Of a DNA stretch of 64,000 nucleotides, positions 12,581 through 25,995 are shown in pieces. The first letter of the stretch is position 1, and every line of letters starts with the position of its first letter. The notes below the pieces were generated by a model. It was not told where the DNA came from, did not search any database, and worked only from the letters and a program-made list of their open reading frames with translations. This DNA is from an uncultured delta proteobacterium (GTDB lineage Bacteria; Myxococcota_A; Polyangia; Polyangiales; Polyangiaceae), in contig CAWAIF010000003.1 of assembly GCA_963782055.1 (NCBI GenBank), forward strand, positions 384,001-448,000. Reading direction: 5' to 3'. The position numbers and the translations under genes are program-made.

Positions 12581-12833
12581 ACTCCAGTCCTAATCCGGCG
12601 GGACCCCTCCCGCCCCGGGAAATCCGCCGCCAGCGCCCGATCGTTCGCCGGCAAACGATCGGCGTGGTGGCCGGATGGCTGAACGGGCGAGCAGGCTTTG
12701 GGGCCGCCGTTTCTTGACCGCCACGAAGAGGGCGTTGTACAGGGGGACAATCCAGGGTCGTTTTCCTGGATCGGGCAGGCCGAGCGTTTCGGCCCTCCTG
12801 CGGTGTGGACGTGGGGGGAGAGGTCGCGAGTGC

Positions 12834-13082
12834 ATGGGTAGTCGGCTGACGTGGCCCCAGATTCGTGAGAGCACCGCGTTCCGAGGACGCTGGGTCGCCC
12901 TGGATGATTGCCGGTATGACGCGCGTACCGCCCAGCCGGTCGAGGGCAGCGTCGTCGACTCCGACGAGGACCTGGTGGAGCTCTGCTCCCGGATGCAGCG
13001 CTCCGACATGCAGCACTGCGCCATCCTGTTCTGCGACGAGGAAGCCCCTCCTTCCAGCCGTCCCCAGCGGCTGACCCACTAA
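12834..13082 (+). CDS. small hypothetical protein
   Basis: 82-aa ORF, FRGRWVALD motif, plausible codon usage. Confidence 0.6.
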   Translation: MGSRLTWPQIRESTAFRGRWVALDDCRYDARTAQPVEGSVVDSDEDLVELCSRMQRSDMQHCAILFCDEEAPPSSRPQRLTH

Positions 13083-13120: not shown

Positions 13121-14137
13121 CTACTTCACGACCGGCTTGAGGACGGTCTTGCCGTCCTTGACGGAGACCTCGAAGTCCACCGCCTTGCCGTGCTTCTCCT
13201 TCAGCCGCGCGCTCGATTCCCGCAGGCTCTTGGCGAGGGCATCGTAGGTGATGGTGGCGGTGGACTCGTTGCGCGAGCGGCGTGTCTGCACGTACTGGGC
13301 GTAGAGCTGCTTGAGGCGGGCGTCGCTCAGGTCCTCCGGACGCGTGGCGGGCCGGCCGGGGGAGCGCGGCGCGGGCCTGGCCGGGGCGCCTGCCGGCGCC
13401 GGAGCCTTCGTCGGGGCCGGCTGGGCCGGGGGCGCGGGCCGCTCCCCCGCCGCCGCCGCAGATGGCGCGTCCTTGCTGACCTTCCGCCACACGGGTCGGC
13501 GCGCGTCGCCCACCGCTGCGCGCGGGACGGCAGTGGCGGCAGGGGGAGGCGGCGCGAGGCGGGGCAGCGGTCCGGACGGCGCTGGCTTCGGCACGGCCGG
13601 GGCGGCACCGGCGGCTCTCTGCCCGGGCGCCGCCCGCTGCGCAGGAACCTGCCGTGGCACCGGCGGCGCGGGCGCCACCACCACCGGCGCCACCGGTCGG
13701 CTGCTGGGCGGCTCGGGCGCCTCCGACGTGTACTCGAAGAGCATGCTGTCCAGATCGGTCAGCTCCTCCGCCGCCGTGACCTCCAGCTCCACCGCCTCCG
13801 CCTCGCGGACCTTCTCCACCGCCTCCTTCTGGGCAAACTTGCGCTTCGCGCGCTGCACGTGGCGCTTGTACGTGCCCTCCTCGATCTGCCGGCAGATGCG
13901 CAGCCAGTGCGACTGGTACGTGTTGTACCGCTGGATGATCATCTGGAAGCGGAAGCGCTGCGCGGTGTTGCGGATCTGTTCGCGACGCAGCGTGTGGATG
14001 CGCCGCTCCACGTCCTTCTGCGGCACCGCCGGCACCGTCTTCTCGATCCCCATGAAGTACTGCTCGTAGAGCGAGCGCAGTCGGTCGACGCGCAGCTCCA
14101 GCTCGTTGATCAGGGTCTCGATCTCCGATGACTCCAA
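13121..14137 (-). CDS. MXAN_5187 C-terminal-domain-like hypothetical protein
   Basis: N-terminal helical LYEQYFMGIEK region, Pro/Ala-rich linker, C-terminal LYAQYV...VDFEVSVKDGKTVLK domain. Confidence 0.7.
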   Translation of the reverse strand: MESSEIETLINELELRVDRLRSLYEQYFMGIEKTVPAVPQKDVERRIHTLRREQIRNTAQRFRFQMIIQRYNTYQSHWLRICRQIEEGTYKRHVQRAKRKFAQKEAVEKVREAEAVELEVTAAEELTDLDSMLFEYTSEAPEPPSSRPVAPVVVAPAPPVPRQVPAQRAAPGQRAAGAAPAVPKPAPSGPLPRLAPPPPAATAVPRAAVGDARRPVWRKVSKDAPSAAAAGERPAPPAQPAPTKAPAPAGAPARPAPRSPGRPATRPEDLSDARLKQLYAQYVQTRRSRNESTATITYDALAKSLRESSARLKEKHGKAVDFEVSVKDGKTVLKPVVK

Positions 14138-15198: not shown

Positions 15199-16776
<1,578 letters not shown>

Positions 16777-17414: not shown

Positions 17415-17438
17415 CGCGCCGCGCGCTACGGTGTGGCC

Positions 17439-17795
17439 ATGCGCGCGGAGCTGCTGCGGGTGCTGGAGGAGCTGCTCGCGGAGAGCGAGAAGGAGGGCGC
17501 GGGGGACATCACGCTGGACCGCTTCGCCGGAGCGGTGGGCGTGCTCGCGGTCACCCCCGAGGAGATCGACGCGCTGCTCGCCGCGGTGGAGGCGCGCGGG
17601 GTGCGGGTGGTCGCGCCGGAGTCGTGCGGCGTGGGGGATGGGGCCCAGCGGCTCAAGCTCGTGATCGCGGCGGCGCGCCGACTCGGGGTGGAGCTGGGCC
17701 GCAAGCCGCGCCCGGCGGAGATCGCCGCCGCCGCGGGGCTGACGGAGGAGGAGGTCCGCCTCGCGCTGCGTCTCGGCCAGGTGATGGGGCGCTGA
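17439..17795 (+). CDS. small sigma70-related protein (region 1.1-like plus region 3-like)
   Basis: ITLD...VTPEEIDALLAAVEARGVRVV and ARRLGVELGRKPRPAEIAAAAGLTEEEVR. Confidence 0.7.
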   Translation: MRAELLRVLEELLAESEKEGAGDITLDRFAGAVGVLAVTPEEIDALLAAVEARGVRVVAPESCGVGDGAQRLKLVIAAARRLGVELGRKPRPAEIAAAAGLTEEEVRLALRLGQVMGR

Positions 17796-21734: not shown

Positions 21735-22020
21735 CCTCCGAGCCCAGCAGCAGGCGCCCTTGCGGCTCGCGGTCTCGTGCTAGAGTGGCAGTAAGGCTGC
21801 AAGAATAGGCTATGGGTGAAATCTGCGGGGGTCCTGGTGACGAGGCGAACGGCGTCCATTGGGTGCTGTCGCATGGTAGCGTCCCGGCCTCTTTCCCACC
21901 GAACGCGCGCTCACGCGCCACCGAGGAAGTCGTGAGGGGGATCGGTCTCTTCACCGCCACCACCTTTGCAGAATGCACCGATCGCGCCGGGGACGCGGCG
22001 CGCGTGCGGAGGTGCACGGC

Positions 22021-25000
22021 GTGAACGTCAACGCCGCCTTCGGTCGGTACCGGCTGCTGGAGCGCCTCGGCCAGGGGGGCATGGCGGAGGTCTTCAAGGC
22101 GAAGAGCTATGGCGTGGAGGGCTTCGAGAAGGTCCTCGTCATCAAGCGCATCCTGCCCGAGCTGGCGCGCAGCCAGGACTTCGTGGACATGTTCATCCAC
22201 GAGGCGAAGCTCGCCGTCCGCCTCTCGCACGCCAACATCGTGCAGGTGTTCGACCTGGGCATCGCGCCGGTCACCGACCCGAAGGGCAACAAGCTCCCCG
22301 ACGCCTACTTCATGGCGATGGAGTACGTGCACGGGCTGGACCTCGCCACGCTCCTCGCGCGGTGCCGCCGCCAGCAGGCCCCCGCGCCGATCGCCATGGC
22401 CGTCTACGTCTGCGCGGAGGTCGCCAAGGGGCTCGACCACGCACACCGCCGCCGCGACGAGCAGCTCCGTCCGCTCGGGATCGTCCACCGCGATGTGTCC
22501 CCGCAGAACGTGCTCCTCTCCTTCGAGGGTGAGGTGAAGGTCACCGACTTCGGCATCGCCAAGGCGCGTGGCGTGCTCGAGCGCGAGGTGGAGGACACCC
22601 GCACCCGTCAGCTCCACGGCAAGTTCGGGTACATGAGCCCGGAGCAGGCGCGCGGCGAGCCGGTGGACGCCCGCAGCGACATCTTCTCCCTCGGCATCGT
22701 GCTCTACGAGTGCCTCGCCGGGGTGAACCCCTTCAGCGCGCCGACGACCTTCGAGACCCTGCGCCGGGTGCAGGCGTGCGAGTACCCGCCCGTCGAGCTG
22801 CTCCGCCCCGACGTGCCGACGGAGCTGGTCAACGTCCTCAAGACGGCGCTGGCCAAGGAGACGAAGGACCGCTACGCCGACGCCGGTCGCCTCTACGAGG
22901 CCATGCTCGCCTTCCTCTACGGCCACGGCAGCCGCTACGGCGCGCACGACCTGAGCGAGTTCTTGAGCGGCTTCGCGCAGGGGGAGGAGGCGCACGGCTC
23001 CAGCGCGCCCTCGCTGGGCGACCCGATGCTCGAGAGCGAGGCGGCGAGCTCTCACGTCAACGAGCGCACCCCCGTGGAGGTGCCGCCCTCGCGCTCGCTC
23101 TCCTCCGGGAACATCTCGCGCGTGGACACCGGCGTGCGCTTCGTCGCGCTGGACCGCGCCGCCGGCGTCGGCGAGCGGCGGGAGGTCACCGCGCTGGTCA
23201 TCGAGTTCCCGCGCGGGGCGGACGCCTCGCTGGTGGACACGGCCGCGCAGATCGTGGAGCGCTACGGCGGGCGCGTGCACCGGAAGGAAGCCGACCAGCT
23301 CGCCGCCCTCTTCGGCCTGGGGGACCCGGACGGCCGCGACACCGAGGTGGCCACCCGCTGCGGTCTGGTCACCCTCCGTTCCATCGGTGGCTCCACCCGG
23401 CCGAGCGCGGGCCTGCACACCGGCCGCATCCACGTCACCGCGGAGGGCGAGCCCACCGAGGACGAGCGCCTGAGCGGGCTGGTCGCGTCGGCGCGCGAGC
23501 TGGCCCGCGCGCGGGAGGGCCGCCTCGCCATCTCCGGCGCGGCGATGCGTCAGGTGAAGGGCCTCTTCGTGTTCGAGGCGCTCGCCACCGGCGACCAGAC
23601 GCCGGTGATGGTGTCCGGCTCGCTGGTCAAGGACGTGCGCGGCCACGCGGAGACGTTCGGCCGCTTCGTCGGCCGCAAGGAGGAGCTGCGCAAGATCGGC
23701 GAGGTGCTCGCCGCCGCCACGCGCCGCAGCGCCCGTGCGCTCACGGTGCGCGGCGGCCACGGCGTCGGCAAGACGCGCCTGCTGGTGGAGGTGGAGCGGC
23801 GCCTGGGCAAGGGCAACTACAACGTGGGCTGGTACATCGCCACCTGCCCCCCGCGCGGCCGCGAGTACCCGCTCTCCGGGATCGTGTGCATGCTGCAGGT
23901 CCTCTGCGGCATCAACGAGGGCGACCCTCCGGACCGCGTGCTCGCCGTGCAGCCGCGCCTGCGCGCCCTGGGCCTGCACGACGAGGAGGTCGGCGCCATC
24001 ATGACCGCCCTCGGCGCCAACGTCCCCACCTACTCTTCGGCGAACGCGAAGACGGCCCTGCGCGGCGCCTTCACGCGCATGGTGGCGAGCCTCTGCGAGG
24101 ACAAGCCGCACACCTTCGCGTGGGACAACGCCCACAACATGGACGAGGACAGCTTCTCCATCCTGGAGGCCGCGTTCGAGCGACTCTCGCACGCGCGCGT
24201 CGTCTTCGCCTTCACCGCGCGGGAGGGCTTCTCCCACCCGGTCCAGCGCTCTCCGCACCACGTCTCCATCGACCTCACCGACCTGAAGACCGAGGACATC
24301 AGCCGCCTGGTCGCGCTGCGCCTCGGGACCGAGTCCGCGCCGGAGGATCTCGTCCGCTTCGTGCGCGAGCGTACGGGCGGGCACCCGCAGTTCATCGAGG
24401 AGGTCATCAAGGCCTTGCTCGACGCCGGGGCGGTGACGATTGCCGACGGCCGCGTCGTCTCGATGCGCCTGCTCGGGCAGGAGCTGGCGCTCCCGAAGAC
24501 CCTGCGCGGCCTGGTGGCCTCCCGCGTCGCGCGCCTCTCCGCGGAGGACCGCGCCACCTTGCAGGCGGCCGCGGTGCTGGGCGATCCGGTCGACTCCGGC
24601 GTGCTCTCGCGCATGCTGGAGCAGCCCCTCGCCGCGCTGGAGCGCTCGCTGTCCACCCTCAAGTCCAGCGAGTTCTTGCTGCACACCGGCCCCTCCGAGC
24701 TGCGCTTCACCTCCCCCATGGTGCGGGAGGTGGTGGTCGACGCCCTGCCGCAGGACGCCGCGCGCGAGATGCACGCGGCCGCCGGCAGCGCTCTCGAGCA
24801 GGAGGAGGGGGACCGCGCCTGGGAGCAGGCCGCGCGCATCGCCATGCACTTCTACGAATCGGGCGACCGCGAGCGCGCGGCCACCTACTTCGCCAGGAGC
24901 GGCGAGCGTCGCGTGGAGGCGCGGCAGCTCGAGGCGGCCGTGCGCGACTACGCGCGCGCCATCGAGCTGTGCAACACCTCCGCGCGCGAACCGGCGGAGC

Positions 25001-25995
25001 TCGCCGACTGGCTGGACGGCCTCGCCGCGGCGGTGCGCATGGTCCGCGCCGCGCCGGAGGCGAGCGAGACGTGCGAGCGCGTCATCGCGCGGATGGACAC
25101 GACGAGCGACGTCGCGCTGCGCGTGCGGTCTCGCGTCGCCGCCACGCGCATCCTGGTGGCGCTCCACAAGTTCGACGCCGCGGTGCCCTACCTGGCCGAG
25201 GCCGAGCGCATCGCCGCCGGGAACGACCCGCTCATGAAGACCGTGCTCGTCGCCTCCGCCGAGCTCGCCGGCCGCCGCGGGGACTTCAACAGCTCGCTGC
25301 AGCTGCTCACCCGCATGCAGAAGCTGGCCACGGTCGAGGGCGACAAGCAGGAGGAGCACAAGATCCTCACCAACCTGACGCAGGCCCACGCCGCGCTGGG
25401 GGATCGCAACGCCGCCACCCAGACCCTCGCCCGCGCCGAGGCCCTGCTGCCGAACGACGCGGCCGCCGCGTGCGAGCGGCAGAAGCTGCGCGGCCTGATG
25501 TACTACTTCCTGCGCGACTACCCGCTCGCCGCGCTGGAGATCGAGAAGGCGGTCGACGTGGCGCGCTCCCTCGGCCTCACCTACGAGATCGCCGTCAACC
25601 TCCACAACCTGGGGGACGTGCTCATCCGCCTCGAGGACTACGCGCGCGCGTACGGCGCGTTGCAGCAGTCGGTGGCGCTCTGCGAGGAGTACGGCTTCGA
25701 CCGGCTCTCCAGCCACAACCGGATGCTGCTGGCGTACCTGGCTGGCTACAAGGGCGATGGCGAGGCGCAGGACCAGCTCGCCGCCGGCATCCGGTACGCG
25801 CAGGCGAACGAGTACATGTGGGACGTCATCAGCGGTCGCTTCCTCAAGGCGAAGCTCCTGCTCCACCAGGGCAAGCGCGACGAGGCCTTCAAGGACTTCA
25901 CCGAGCTGCGGGAGCTGGCGCGGGTGAACGGCCACCGGATGATCGTGGACGACTGCGAAGCCGTCCTCGCGGCGTCCACACCCGCTTCTTCCTGA
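22021..25995 (+). CDS. Ser/Thr protein kinase fused to degenerate cyclase-like, AAA/STAND ATPase and TPR domains
   Basis: LGQGGMAEV, IKRIL, HRDVSPQN, DFG, YMSPE; RFVGRKEEL, Walker A GGHGVGKT, WDNAHNMD, GGHPQF; TPR-like C-terminus. Confidence 0.92.
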   Translation: MNVNAAFGRYRLLERLGQGGMAEVFKAKSYGVEGFEKVLVIKRILPELARSQDFVDMFIHEAKLAVRLSHANIVQVFDLGIAPVTDPKGNKLPDAYFMAMEYVHGLDLATLLARCRRQQAPAPIAMAVYVCAEVAKGLDHAHRRRDEQLRPLGIVHRDVSPQNVLLSFEGEVKVTDFGIAKARGVLEREVEDTRTRQLHGKFGYMSPEQARGEPVDARSDIFSLGIVLYECLAGVNPFSAPTTFETLRRVQACEYPPVELLRPDVPTELVNVLKTALAKETKDRYADAGRLYEAMLAFLYGHGSRYGAHDLSEFLSGFAQGEEAHGSSAPSLGDPMLESEAASSHVNERTPVEVPPSRSLSSGNISRVDTGVRFVALDRAAGVGERREVTALVIEFPRGADASLVDTAAQIVERYGGRVHRKEADQLAALFGLGDPDGRDTEVATRCGLVTLRSIGGSTRPSAGLHTGRIHVTAEGEPTEDERLSGLVASARELARAREGRLAISGAAMRQVKGLFVFEALATGDQTPVMVSGSLVKDVRGHAETFGRFVGRKEELRKIGEVLAAATRRSARALTVRGGHGVGKTRLLVEVERRLGKGNYNVGWYIATCPPRGREYPLSGIVCMLQVLCGINEGDPPDRVLAVQPRLRALGLHDEEVGAIMTALGANVPTYSSANAKTALRGAFTRMVASLCEDKPHTFAWDNAHNMDEDSFSILEAAFERLSHARVVFAFTAREGFSHPVQRSPHHVSIDLTDLKTEDISRLVALRLGTESAPEDLVRFVRERTGGHPQFIEEVIKALLDAGAVTIADGRVVSMRLLGQELALPKTLRGLVASRVARLSAEDRATLQAAAVLGDPVDSGVLSRMLEQPLAALERSLSTLKSSEFLLHTGPSELRFTSPMVREVVVDALPQDAAREMHAAAGSALEQEEGDRAWEQAARIAMHFYESGDRERAATYFARSGERRVEARQLEAAVRDYARAIELCNTSAREPAELADWLDGLAAAVRMVRAAPEASETCERVIARMDTTSDVALRVRSRVAATRILVALHKFDAAVPYLAEAERIAAGNDPLMKTVLVASAELAGRRGDFNSSLQLLTRMQKLATVEGDKQEEHKILTNLTQAHAALGDRNAATQTLARAEALLPNDAAAACERQKLRGLMYYFLRDYPLAALEIEKAVDVARSLGLTYEIAVNLHNLGDVLIRLEDYARAYGALQQSVALCEEYGFDRLSSHNRMLLAYLAGYKGDGEAQDQLAAGIRYAQANEYMWDVISGRFLKAKLLLHQGKRDEAFKDFTELRELARVNGHRMIVDDCEAVLAASTPASS

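What the first reader, a model, noticed from the sequence alone, without database searches (positions are those of the whole stretch)
17439..17795. Mini-sigma: sigma70 region 1.1 fused directly to region 3, lacking regions 2 and 4
Seen: 118 aa. The N-half (ITLDRF...VTPEEIDALLAAVEARGVRVV) matches the pattern of primary-sigma region 1.1, and the C-half (ARRLGVELGRKPRPAEIAAAAGLTEEEVR) matches the region 3 HTH. Established: region 2 (core binding, -10 melting) and region 4 (-35 recognition) are required for sigma function, and region 1.1 is an autoinhibitory DNA mimic. Inference: this cannot be a sigma factor but could be an RNA polymerase modulator, sigma antagonist or anti-sigma decoy. The ORF is intact and has its own TACGGT-6nt-ATG signal, so it does not look like decay.
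Basis: partly seen in the sequence, partly recalled or inferred. Interest (0 to 1): 0.7.

Follow-up and report, generated by a model that had tools for sequence, protein, structure and literature searches.

The report
Sigma-factor fragment missing both promoter readers
Many Polyangiaceae-type myxobacteria keep a conserved small gene whose protein matches only two parts of the housekeeping sigma factor (region 1.1 and domain 3) and has neither promoter-reading part, so it likely acts as an undescribed modulator that binds RNA polymerase rather than as a sigma factor.

Summary
Window 17439-17795 (+) encodes 118 aa. The C-half is sigma-70 domain 3 (Pfam E 4.9e-8) and stops before the 3.2 finger. 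The N-half misses Pfam region 1.1 on its own. As a family profile it matches RpoD region 1.1 (hhalign 95%, far above shuffles), and the model's top Foldseek hit is B. subtilis sigma1.1. Regions 1.2, 2, 3.2 and 4 are absent.

It is not a decay remnant. Relatives occur in 72 of 151 genomes of the host family, one copy each and no internal stops. The family has at least 268 clusters, dN/dS is 0.15-0.21, and a leaderless-type -10 box recurs. Region 3.0 DNA-reading residues are lost, exposed R468/R476 equivalents are kept, and the 1.1 domain stays acidic.

Best reading (inferred, 0.45): an RNA-polymerase-binding sigma antagonist that docks at the domain-3 site with a tethered acidic DNA mimic. It holds exactly the two domains that ECF sigmas lack. 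Binding is untested: the complex predictor was unavailable. No paper and no earlier scan finding describes it.

The parts
17439..17795 (+). Mini-sigma gene, 118 aa (P0001), member of a conserved family of about 110-120 aa
17439..17618 (+). Residues 1-60: sigma region 1.1-like domain (predicted three helices and two short strands), net charge -6
17619..17639 (+). Residues 61-67: Gly-rich low-confidence linker; E51-to-L72 spacing is 18-19 columns in 170 of 186 members
17640..17792 (+). Residues 68-118: sigma domain 3 (3.0 helix plus helix-turn-helix), net charge +5, ending in a family-specific VMxR tail where the 3.2 finger would start
17676..17678 (+). R80, equivalent of sigma70 R468; Arg in 182 of 186 members
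17427..17432 (+). TACGGT, a TANNNT -10-type box 6 nt before the ATG; predicted own leaderless promoter
   Evidence: PMC3160421 passages

Best explanation
The gene encodes a two-domain remnant-shaped but selected derivative of a group-1 sigma-70 that likely works as a small RNA-polymerase-binding sigma antagonist: its domain-3 part would dock where sigma domain 3 docks on the beta subunit, and its acidic region-1.1 part would act as a tethered DNA mimic. SHOWN: homology of both halves; loss of regions 1.2, 2, 3.2 and 4; conservation as a short single-copy gene; purifying selection; acidic N-domain and basic C-domain; loss of the 3.0 DNA-reading residues; retention of exposed R468/R476 equivalents. 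PREDICTED: two independently folding domains on a flexible linker, and an own leaderless transcript. INFERRED: origin by an internal deletion plus C-terminal truncation of an rpoD copy. INFERRED, UNTESTED: binding to core RNAP at the beta1-lobe (that domain 3 sits there is recalled). With a linker of about 10 residues the two domains probably cannot both reach their canonical sites. The likely effect is damped initiation by sigmas that need the domain-3 site (RpoD and the three other domain-3 sigmas of the host), which would shift core toward the roughly 37 ECF-type sigmas that have no domain 3.
For: Both halves match the two sigma domains in the right order: the top four PDB sequence hits of the family profile are SigA/RpoD chains, each with an N-terminal (1.1) and a domain-3 stretch. 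hhalign 95% to region 1.1. Structure matches: SigB domain 3 Z 9.1 rmsd 1.9, SigF domain 3 Z 8.7, sigma1.1 Z 6.6. One copy in each of 72 positive genomes of 151, no stops, which suits a single conserved target. V454/H455/E458/R465 are 100% conserved in 45 RpoD-like rows but occur in 3/3/22/7% of 186 family rows, while R468 stays at 98%, G475 82%, R476 80%, P478 85%. Bae 2015 (PMC4593229, passages) assigns V454, H455, E458 and the Taq equivalent of R465 to promoter DNA contacts and calls the role of the R468 equivalent tentative. R468 and R476 are solvent-exposed in sigma70 (149 and 153 A^2; PMC11217687 Table 2), so their retention points to a kept binding surface rather than to the fold. N-domain net charge median -6, in the range of RpoD 1.1 (-2 to -10). 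Sigma1.1 occupies the RNAP channel (PMC5511352 passages). ECF sigmas lack exactly 1.1 and 3 (PMC4598750 passage). The host has 41 region-2 matches, only 4 with domain 3.
Against: Q472 (98% in sigma, 7% in the family), E477 (96% to 1%), K499 and E503-P504-I505 are lost, so the domain-3 surface is much changed. The main sigma-core interface is region 2 (recalled), so affinity could be low. The position of sigma1.1 I53 (numbering recalled) is Arg in 69% of rows, and several conserved acidic residues may be helix caps. The N-domain profile did not retrieve the host's RpoD 1.1. PMC11217687 lists R468 and R476 among DNA-interacting residues, so they could serve nucleic-acid binding instead. The gene was not found in 79 of 151 family genomes, including 5 of 5 re-searched in depth that carry 44-53 region-2 matches. 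The link to sigma-rich genomes is weak and confounded by size and kinship.
Confidence: 0.45

Rival explanations
1. Trans-complement of ECF sigmas: it joins ECF holoenzymes (domains 2+4), supplies the missing domains 1.1 and 3, and so tunes their stability or promoter selectivity, a split sigma with unlinked halves.
For: Exact domain complement of ECFs. About 37 ECF-type sigmas in the host. Region-2 matches per Mb: median 6.1 in 14 carriers against 4.6 in 17 non-carriers, and all 6 genomes with under 20 matches lack the gene (hand-computed; genomes hand-picked). An ECF gene is within 1.5 kb in 2 related loci (L021, L025).
Against: The extended -10 residues are gone, so it would add no promoter reading. 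Only 2 of 106 scanned neighbour ORFs matched sigma domains. ECF-rich genomes lack it.
Confidence: 0.15
2. Decoy (sigma mimicry): it titrates a protein that binds domain 3 or 1.1 of a real sigma, such as an anti-sigma, a proteolysis adaptor or a phage inhibitor.
For: PhyR is a precedent for sigma mimicry (listing). The SpoIIAB complex 1L0O contains just the 57-residue SigF domain 3 that the model matches (Z 8.7). The host has short HATPase_c_2 frames of 146 and 162 aa. Patchy presence suits an accessory role.
Against: No SigB/F/G-type sigma over the cut-off in the host. A decoy should track the host sigma surface, yet many exposed residues differ from RpoD. No anti-sigma gene among the 106 neighbours scanned.
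Confidence: 0.15
3. Anti-sigma by domain complementation: it binds domains 2 and 4 of free RpoD or ECF sigmas, mimicking the compact auto-inhibited state.
For: Region 1.1 auto-inhibits free sigma70 (PMC5511352 passages) and apo-sigma70 is compact (PMC11217687 passages). The acidic domain suits the basic region 4 (inference).
Against: ECFs are diverse while this gene is single-copy. The 3.0 residues buried in the compact model (H455, E458, R465) are the ones lost.
Confidence: 0.1
4. DNA- or RNA-binding helix-turn-helix regulator with an acidic auto-inhibitory or protein-binding domain.
For: C-domain net charge median +4 against +1 for RpoD domain 3. TetR-type HTH domains score Z 6-7. Terminal Arg/Lys in 176 of 186 rows.
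Against: Exposed positions of the would-be recognition helix (103-105, 108) are variable (3.0-3.3 bits) and often acidic. No shared upstream 7-mer beyond GC-rich words in 34 loci. No constant neighbour.
Confidence: 0.1
5. Non-functional deletion remnant of rpoD.
For: Residues 46-60 also align with the region 2.4/3.0 hinge, as a single deletion would give. The gene is dispensable in about half of the family's genomes.
Against: 268 clusters at 50% identity with E<=1e-10. No stops in 72 of 72 matches. dN/dS 0.15-0.21 in the four closest of 741 pairs. Fixed linker length. Conserved -10 box.
Confidence: 0.03

Closest known systems
Group 1 sigma-70 factors (RpoD/SigA)
   Same: Region 1.1 fold and acidity; domain-3 fold and the R468-x-L-xx-E-L-G-R-x-P pattern; same domain order.
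   Different: 118 aa against about 600. No 1.2, NCR, 2, 3.2 or 4. Extended -10 residues lost. Not universal. The host keeps a full RpoD.
ECF (group 4) sigma factors
   Same: Reduced two-domain sigma-70 derivative.
   Different: The exact opposite domain set: ECFs keep 2+4 and lack 1.1 and 3 (PMC4598750 passage).
PhyR sigma-like domain (sigma mimicry)
   Same: A sigma-derived protein that is not a sigma factor (listing and abstract start).
   Different: PhyR mimics ECF domains 2+4 behind a receiver domain and binds NepR (domain make-up recalled). Here there is no receiver and no linked partner.
Split sigma SigO-RsoA (YvrI-YvrHa) of B. subtilis (recalled, no call)
   Same: Sigma function divided among small proteins.
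   Different: Those halves carry regions 2 and 4 and are neighbours. Here neither region is present and no complementary half is linked.
RNAP delta subunit (RpoE) of Bacillota
   Same: Small two-part protein with an RNAP-docking domain and an acidic part that competes with nucleic acid (bioRxiv 10.1101/2021.06.06.447298 passages): a functional analogy to the best explanation.
   Different: No delta match in the sequence or fold lists. The acidic part here is a folded 1.1 domain, not a disordered tail.
Uncharacterised Bacillota cluster in the ESM Atlas (149 aa, 102 members, PF03979 99% + PF04539 100%)
   Same: Same two Pfam domains in a short protein.
   Different: Other phylum, feature score 0.89 (a lead only). 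Sequences not obtained, so kinship or convergence is open.

Membership tests
Sigma-70 factor (any group) | Region 2 (core binding, -10 melting) | tested here: not met
   No room in 118 aa and no PF04542 match for P0001; not among the families listed for 141 members; the gene is not among the host's 41 PF04542 matches
Sigma-70 factor (any group) | Region 4 (-35 recognition) | tested here: not met
   The protein ends at the position of sigma70 S506; only 3 of 141 weak HTH cross-hits
Group 1 sigma-70 | Region 1.1 domain, acidic | tested here: met
   hhalign 95.3%, E 2.4e-8, with controls; Foldseek rank 1 5MWW; met at family level, below the Pfam cut-off for this protein
Group 1-3 sigma-70 | Domain 3 fold | tested here: met
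   PF04539 over cut-off; 131 of 141 members; Z 9.1
Group 1-3 sigma-70 | Region 3.0 extended -10 residues and 3.2 finger | tested here: not met
   H455 3%, E458 22%, R465 7%; the chain ends before the finger
PhyR-type sigma mimic | Sigma-like 2+4 domain fused to a receiver domain | tested here: not met
   best 150 relatives are 80-163 aa
PhyR-type sigma mimic | Binds an anti-sigma factor | not testable with these tools
   needs a pull-down
Split (two-gene) sigma | Complementary half encoded next door | tested here: not met
   2 of 106 neighbour ORFs carry sigma domains, both ECF-type, in one genus; window neighbours are a histidine phosphatase, a hypothetical protein and TsaE
Small RNAP-binding modulators (delta-like) | Physical binding to core RNAP | not tested
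Sequence-specific HTH regulators | Conserved recognition-helix residues and operator | tested here: inconclusive
   Variable, often acidic positions; no shared upstream word in a simple 7-mer count

The most novel reading that the evidence does not exclude
A free-standing 'other half' of sigma-70: domains 1.1 and 3 expressed as a separate subunit that docks on the site ECF sigmas leave empty. It would shut out RpoD-type sigmas and equip or gate dozens of ECF holoenzymes in trans, a new layer of sigma competition. The same architecture may have arisen a second time in Bacillota.
Probability: 0.2. Interest if true: 0.9.

Novelty: new variant of a known kind. Interest (0 to 1): 0.7.

Why it matters
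All characterised reduced sigma-70 derivatives that I know (recalled) keep domains 2 and/or 4. This family keeps the two domains that ECFs discard and drops the two thought indispensable, and selection has held it across dozens of genera. If it binds RNAP it is a natural, 13-kDa probe of what regions 1.1 and 3 do on their own. It would also suggest how bacteria with 40-75 sigma factors steer competition for core. It is small, predicted to be well folded and easy to test in vitro.

Tried and rejected
No RNA holder was listed for the stretch.
No match in 72,556 plasmid or 50,697 phage records; IMG/VR was not scanned.
No fused or longer form among 7,995 scored candidates of 227-2000 aa (weak, since even full sigmas did not pass E 1e-6).
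The GTDB pattern scan returned 2 loci of 84 candidates, one real (L122) and one spurious (L123).
Inter-domain packing: pTM 0.52 with 36 rows and 0.49 with 141 rows, so no confident packing.
Pairwise hhalign of the family with the host's single RpoD N-terminus was not significant (Prob 1.7), though aligned in the same register.
Conserved synteny was rejected family-wide.
The family tree is poorly resolved (7 of 36 inner branches supported). Genus labels cluster more than shuffles (25 changes against 32.6), but the two g1 members do not group, so transfer is not excluded.
The sigma70 consensus scan found no -35/-10 pair.
The Bacillota 1.1+3 cluster could not be fetched.
Bae 2013 and the 5MWW paper were not held; the search for domain-3/beta contact residues gave no usable paper. 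Supplements were not read.

Full report
1. Observation. The + strand ORF 17439-17795 encodes 118 aa as quoted, with codon bias like its neighbours. It lies 24 nt after a histidine-phosphatase gene and 99 nt before a hypothetical gene that is followed by tsaE. Pfam finds Sigma70_r3 at residues 72-114 (E 4.9e-8, profile 3-45 of 78), so the match ends before the 3.2 finger; Pfam does not find region 1.1 in this protein. phmmer against PDB sequences ranks SigA/RpoD chains first and shows sub-threshold N-terminal alignments to their region 1.1.

2. The N-half is region 1.1. With a 36-row family profile, the top four PDB hits are SigA/RpoD chains, each with a 1.1 stretch (independent E 0.08-4.7) and a domain-3 stretch. 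26 of 141 members hit PF03979 at E<=0.01 and 131 of 141 hit PF04539. Profile-profile alignment of the N-domain with 29 RpoD region-1.1 rows gives Prob 95.3, E 2.4e-8, score 39.1; 100 column shuffles give 9.0 +/- 1.8 (max 13.8) and the reversed profile 8.3. 83 of 183 members exceed 10 bits forward and none reversed. The AlphaFold2 model (pLDDT 90.6, pTM 0.52) has two domains. Foldseek ranks B. subtilis sigma1.1 first (5MWW, prob 1.00, rmsd 1.6, E 0.2; no hit reached E 0.001). The wide VIA search ranks domain 3 of SigB (Z 9.1) and SigF (Z 8.7) first and 5MWW at Z 6.6 for residues 2-63, with TetR-type HTHs close behind at 6-6.8; one search repeats this with the deeper model. Against: the N-domain HMM did not retrieve the host's own RpoD 1.1 from the six-frame genome, and the pairwise comparison with it was not significant. 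The domain has diverged far but is homologous.

3. It is a selected family, not debris. A single-protein search found matches in 64 of 301 genomes of the order. Three of these (G007, G028, G209) are domain-3-only or stop-containing matches and are dropped, leaving 61, mainly in five families. The profile finds one intact copy in 72 of 151 genomes of the host family; one genome elsewhere in the order has a divergent second copy. In 401 genomes of the phylum, 15 have a full-length match: 12 in the host family and 3 in one genus of another class (only 11 candidates scored per genome). Source names on relatives read Polyangiaceae, 'sigma-70 domain-containing protein' or hypothetical. HMMER over 1.84 billion representatives gives 268 clusters at E<=1e-10; the best 150 are all 80-163 aa. 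Median length is 114, and the E51-L72 spacing is 18-19 in 170 of 186 rows. dN/dS is 0.15, 0.17, 0.21 and 0.21 for the four closest of 741 pairs among 39 genes; more distant pairs, near saturation, give 0.3-0.7. A TANNNT box 4-10 nt before the start occurs in 11 of 30 and 10 of 34 loci, against shuffle means near 1; genome-wide the same motif peaks 6 nt before ATG in 14.7% of 1,129 long ORFs. Zheng 2011 (PMC3160421, passages) reads such boxes as leaderless promoters. So the gene likely has its own transcript, which fits its changing neighbourhood. It is dispensable: five large, 95-98% complete genomes re-searched with 150 candidates each show only full-length sigmas.

4. What was kept and what was lost. 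Register: L72 = sigma70 I460 (HMMER alignments; structure match 65-118 to 453-504; numbering as). Against 45 RpoD-like rows, the family has lost V454, H455, E458 and R465, also Q472, E477, K499 and everything from E503 on. It keeps R468 (98%), G475, R476, P478, E482 and the hydrophobic core. Bae 2015 (passages) gives V454, H455, E458 and the R465 equivalent as promoter contacts and the R468 equivalent as tentative. R468 and R476 are highly exposed in sigma70 (PMC11217687 Table 2; that table lists them among DNA-interacting residues). The N-domain is acidic (median -6) and the C-domain basic (+4, against +1 for RpoD). Would-be recognition-helix positions are variable. Residues 46-60 can also be aligned to the region 2.4/3.0 hinge, which suggests one in-frame deletion from the end of 1.1 to the end of region 2; one subfamily (L151-L157) looks more 1.1-like there, so the junction is uncertain. 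A 141-row model still shows no confident packing between the domains (pTM 0.49).

5. Mechanism. The protein cannot melt or read promoters. A single-copy gene with a kept exposed basic face on domain 3 and a kept acidic 1.1 domain is most simply read as binding the machine both domains normally touch, core RNAP. Region 1.1 sits in the channel on a 37-residue linker in E. coli (PMC5511352 passages); here the linker is about 10 residues, so I infer that domain 3 anchors and the acidic domain hinders nearby DNA or an incoming sigma. ECF sigmas lack both domains (PMC4598750 passage), so such a protein would compete with RpoD-type sigmas but could coexist with ECFs. The host has 41 region-2 matches, four with domain 3, and no SigB/F/G over cut-off. 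Carriers tend to be richer in sigmas (median 6.1 against 4.6 per Mb; 14 against 17 hand-picked genomes), but ranges overlap, kin are not independent, and absence was checked in depth for only 5 of the 17. None of the binding steps was tested; the complex predictor was not available. Confidence: RNAP antagonist 0.45, ECF trans-complement 0.15, decoy 0.15, anti-sigma 0.10, HTH regulator 0.10, remnant 0.03.

6. Known or new. It fails membership of every sigma group, of PhyR-type mimics and of linked split sigmas. Automatic names in the ESM Atlas already note the 1.1+3 architecture for Myxococcota clusters and for a 149-aa Bacillota cluster, so the architecture is in databases but uncharacterised. 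Full-text searches of the open library found no description (listings only; subscription journals and supplements not covered). The scan's earlier findings held no look-alike by sequence, and none of the 8 shown of 9 word matches was this protein. Verdict: real, conserved, undescribed sigma-70 derivative with an unprecedented domain set as far as these searches reach; mechanism inferred. Interest 0.7.

Noticed in passing
L152:2383-3429, L155:2331-3456, L156:2096-3150, L154 (G702, G736, G290, G735): In 4 of 10 fetched loci (two genera) the mini-sigma gene lies directly upstream of, and in line with, hpf; in L152, L155 and L156 ptsN follows, with hprK- and rapZ-like genes seen in part of the loci. 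In the window's genome that slot is held by a gene ending in an RpoN-type C-terminus (motif recalled). In G702, G736 and G735 rpoN lies far away. G713 has hpf 3.4 kb away and G204 35 kb away. Probably clade-level rearrangement, but it places a sigma fragment where sigma-54 usually sits.
   Followed up: partly
L151-L157, L040: A subfamily with a more 1.1-like LESEGLRV segment, an acidic linker and a different, variable C-terminus in place of VMxR.
   Followed up: partly
G000 genome-wide: TANNNT peaks 6-9 nt before ATG in 166 of 1,129 long ORFs (14.7%), suggesting frequent leaderless mRNAs in this Polyangiaceae-type genome.
   Followed up: partly
ESM Atlas: A 102-member, 149-aa Bacillota cluster with region 1.1 (99%) and region 3 (100%), and a 233-member, 56-aa cluster with region 1.1 alone; the latter may be fragments.
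   Followed up: no
window 13121-14137 (-): Protein with the MXAN_5187 C-terminal domain over cut-off.
   Followed up: no
window 15199-16776 (+): Lgt homologue of 525 aa with an extra N-terminal membrane segment and a long charged C-terminal tail.
   Followed up: no
window 12801-13082 (+): Small ORF with only a weak DUF5678 hint (E 0.26), convergent with the MXAN_5187-domain gene.
   Followed up: no
window 21973-25995 (+): 1,340-aa Ser/Thr kinase plus AAA_16 ATPase protein, ordinary for myxobacteria.
   Followed up: no
L161 (G055:C264): Divergent second copy of the mini-sigma with a C-terminal extension, the only paralogue seen.
   Followed up: partly
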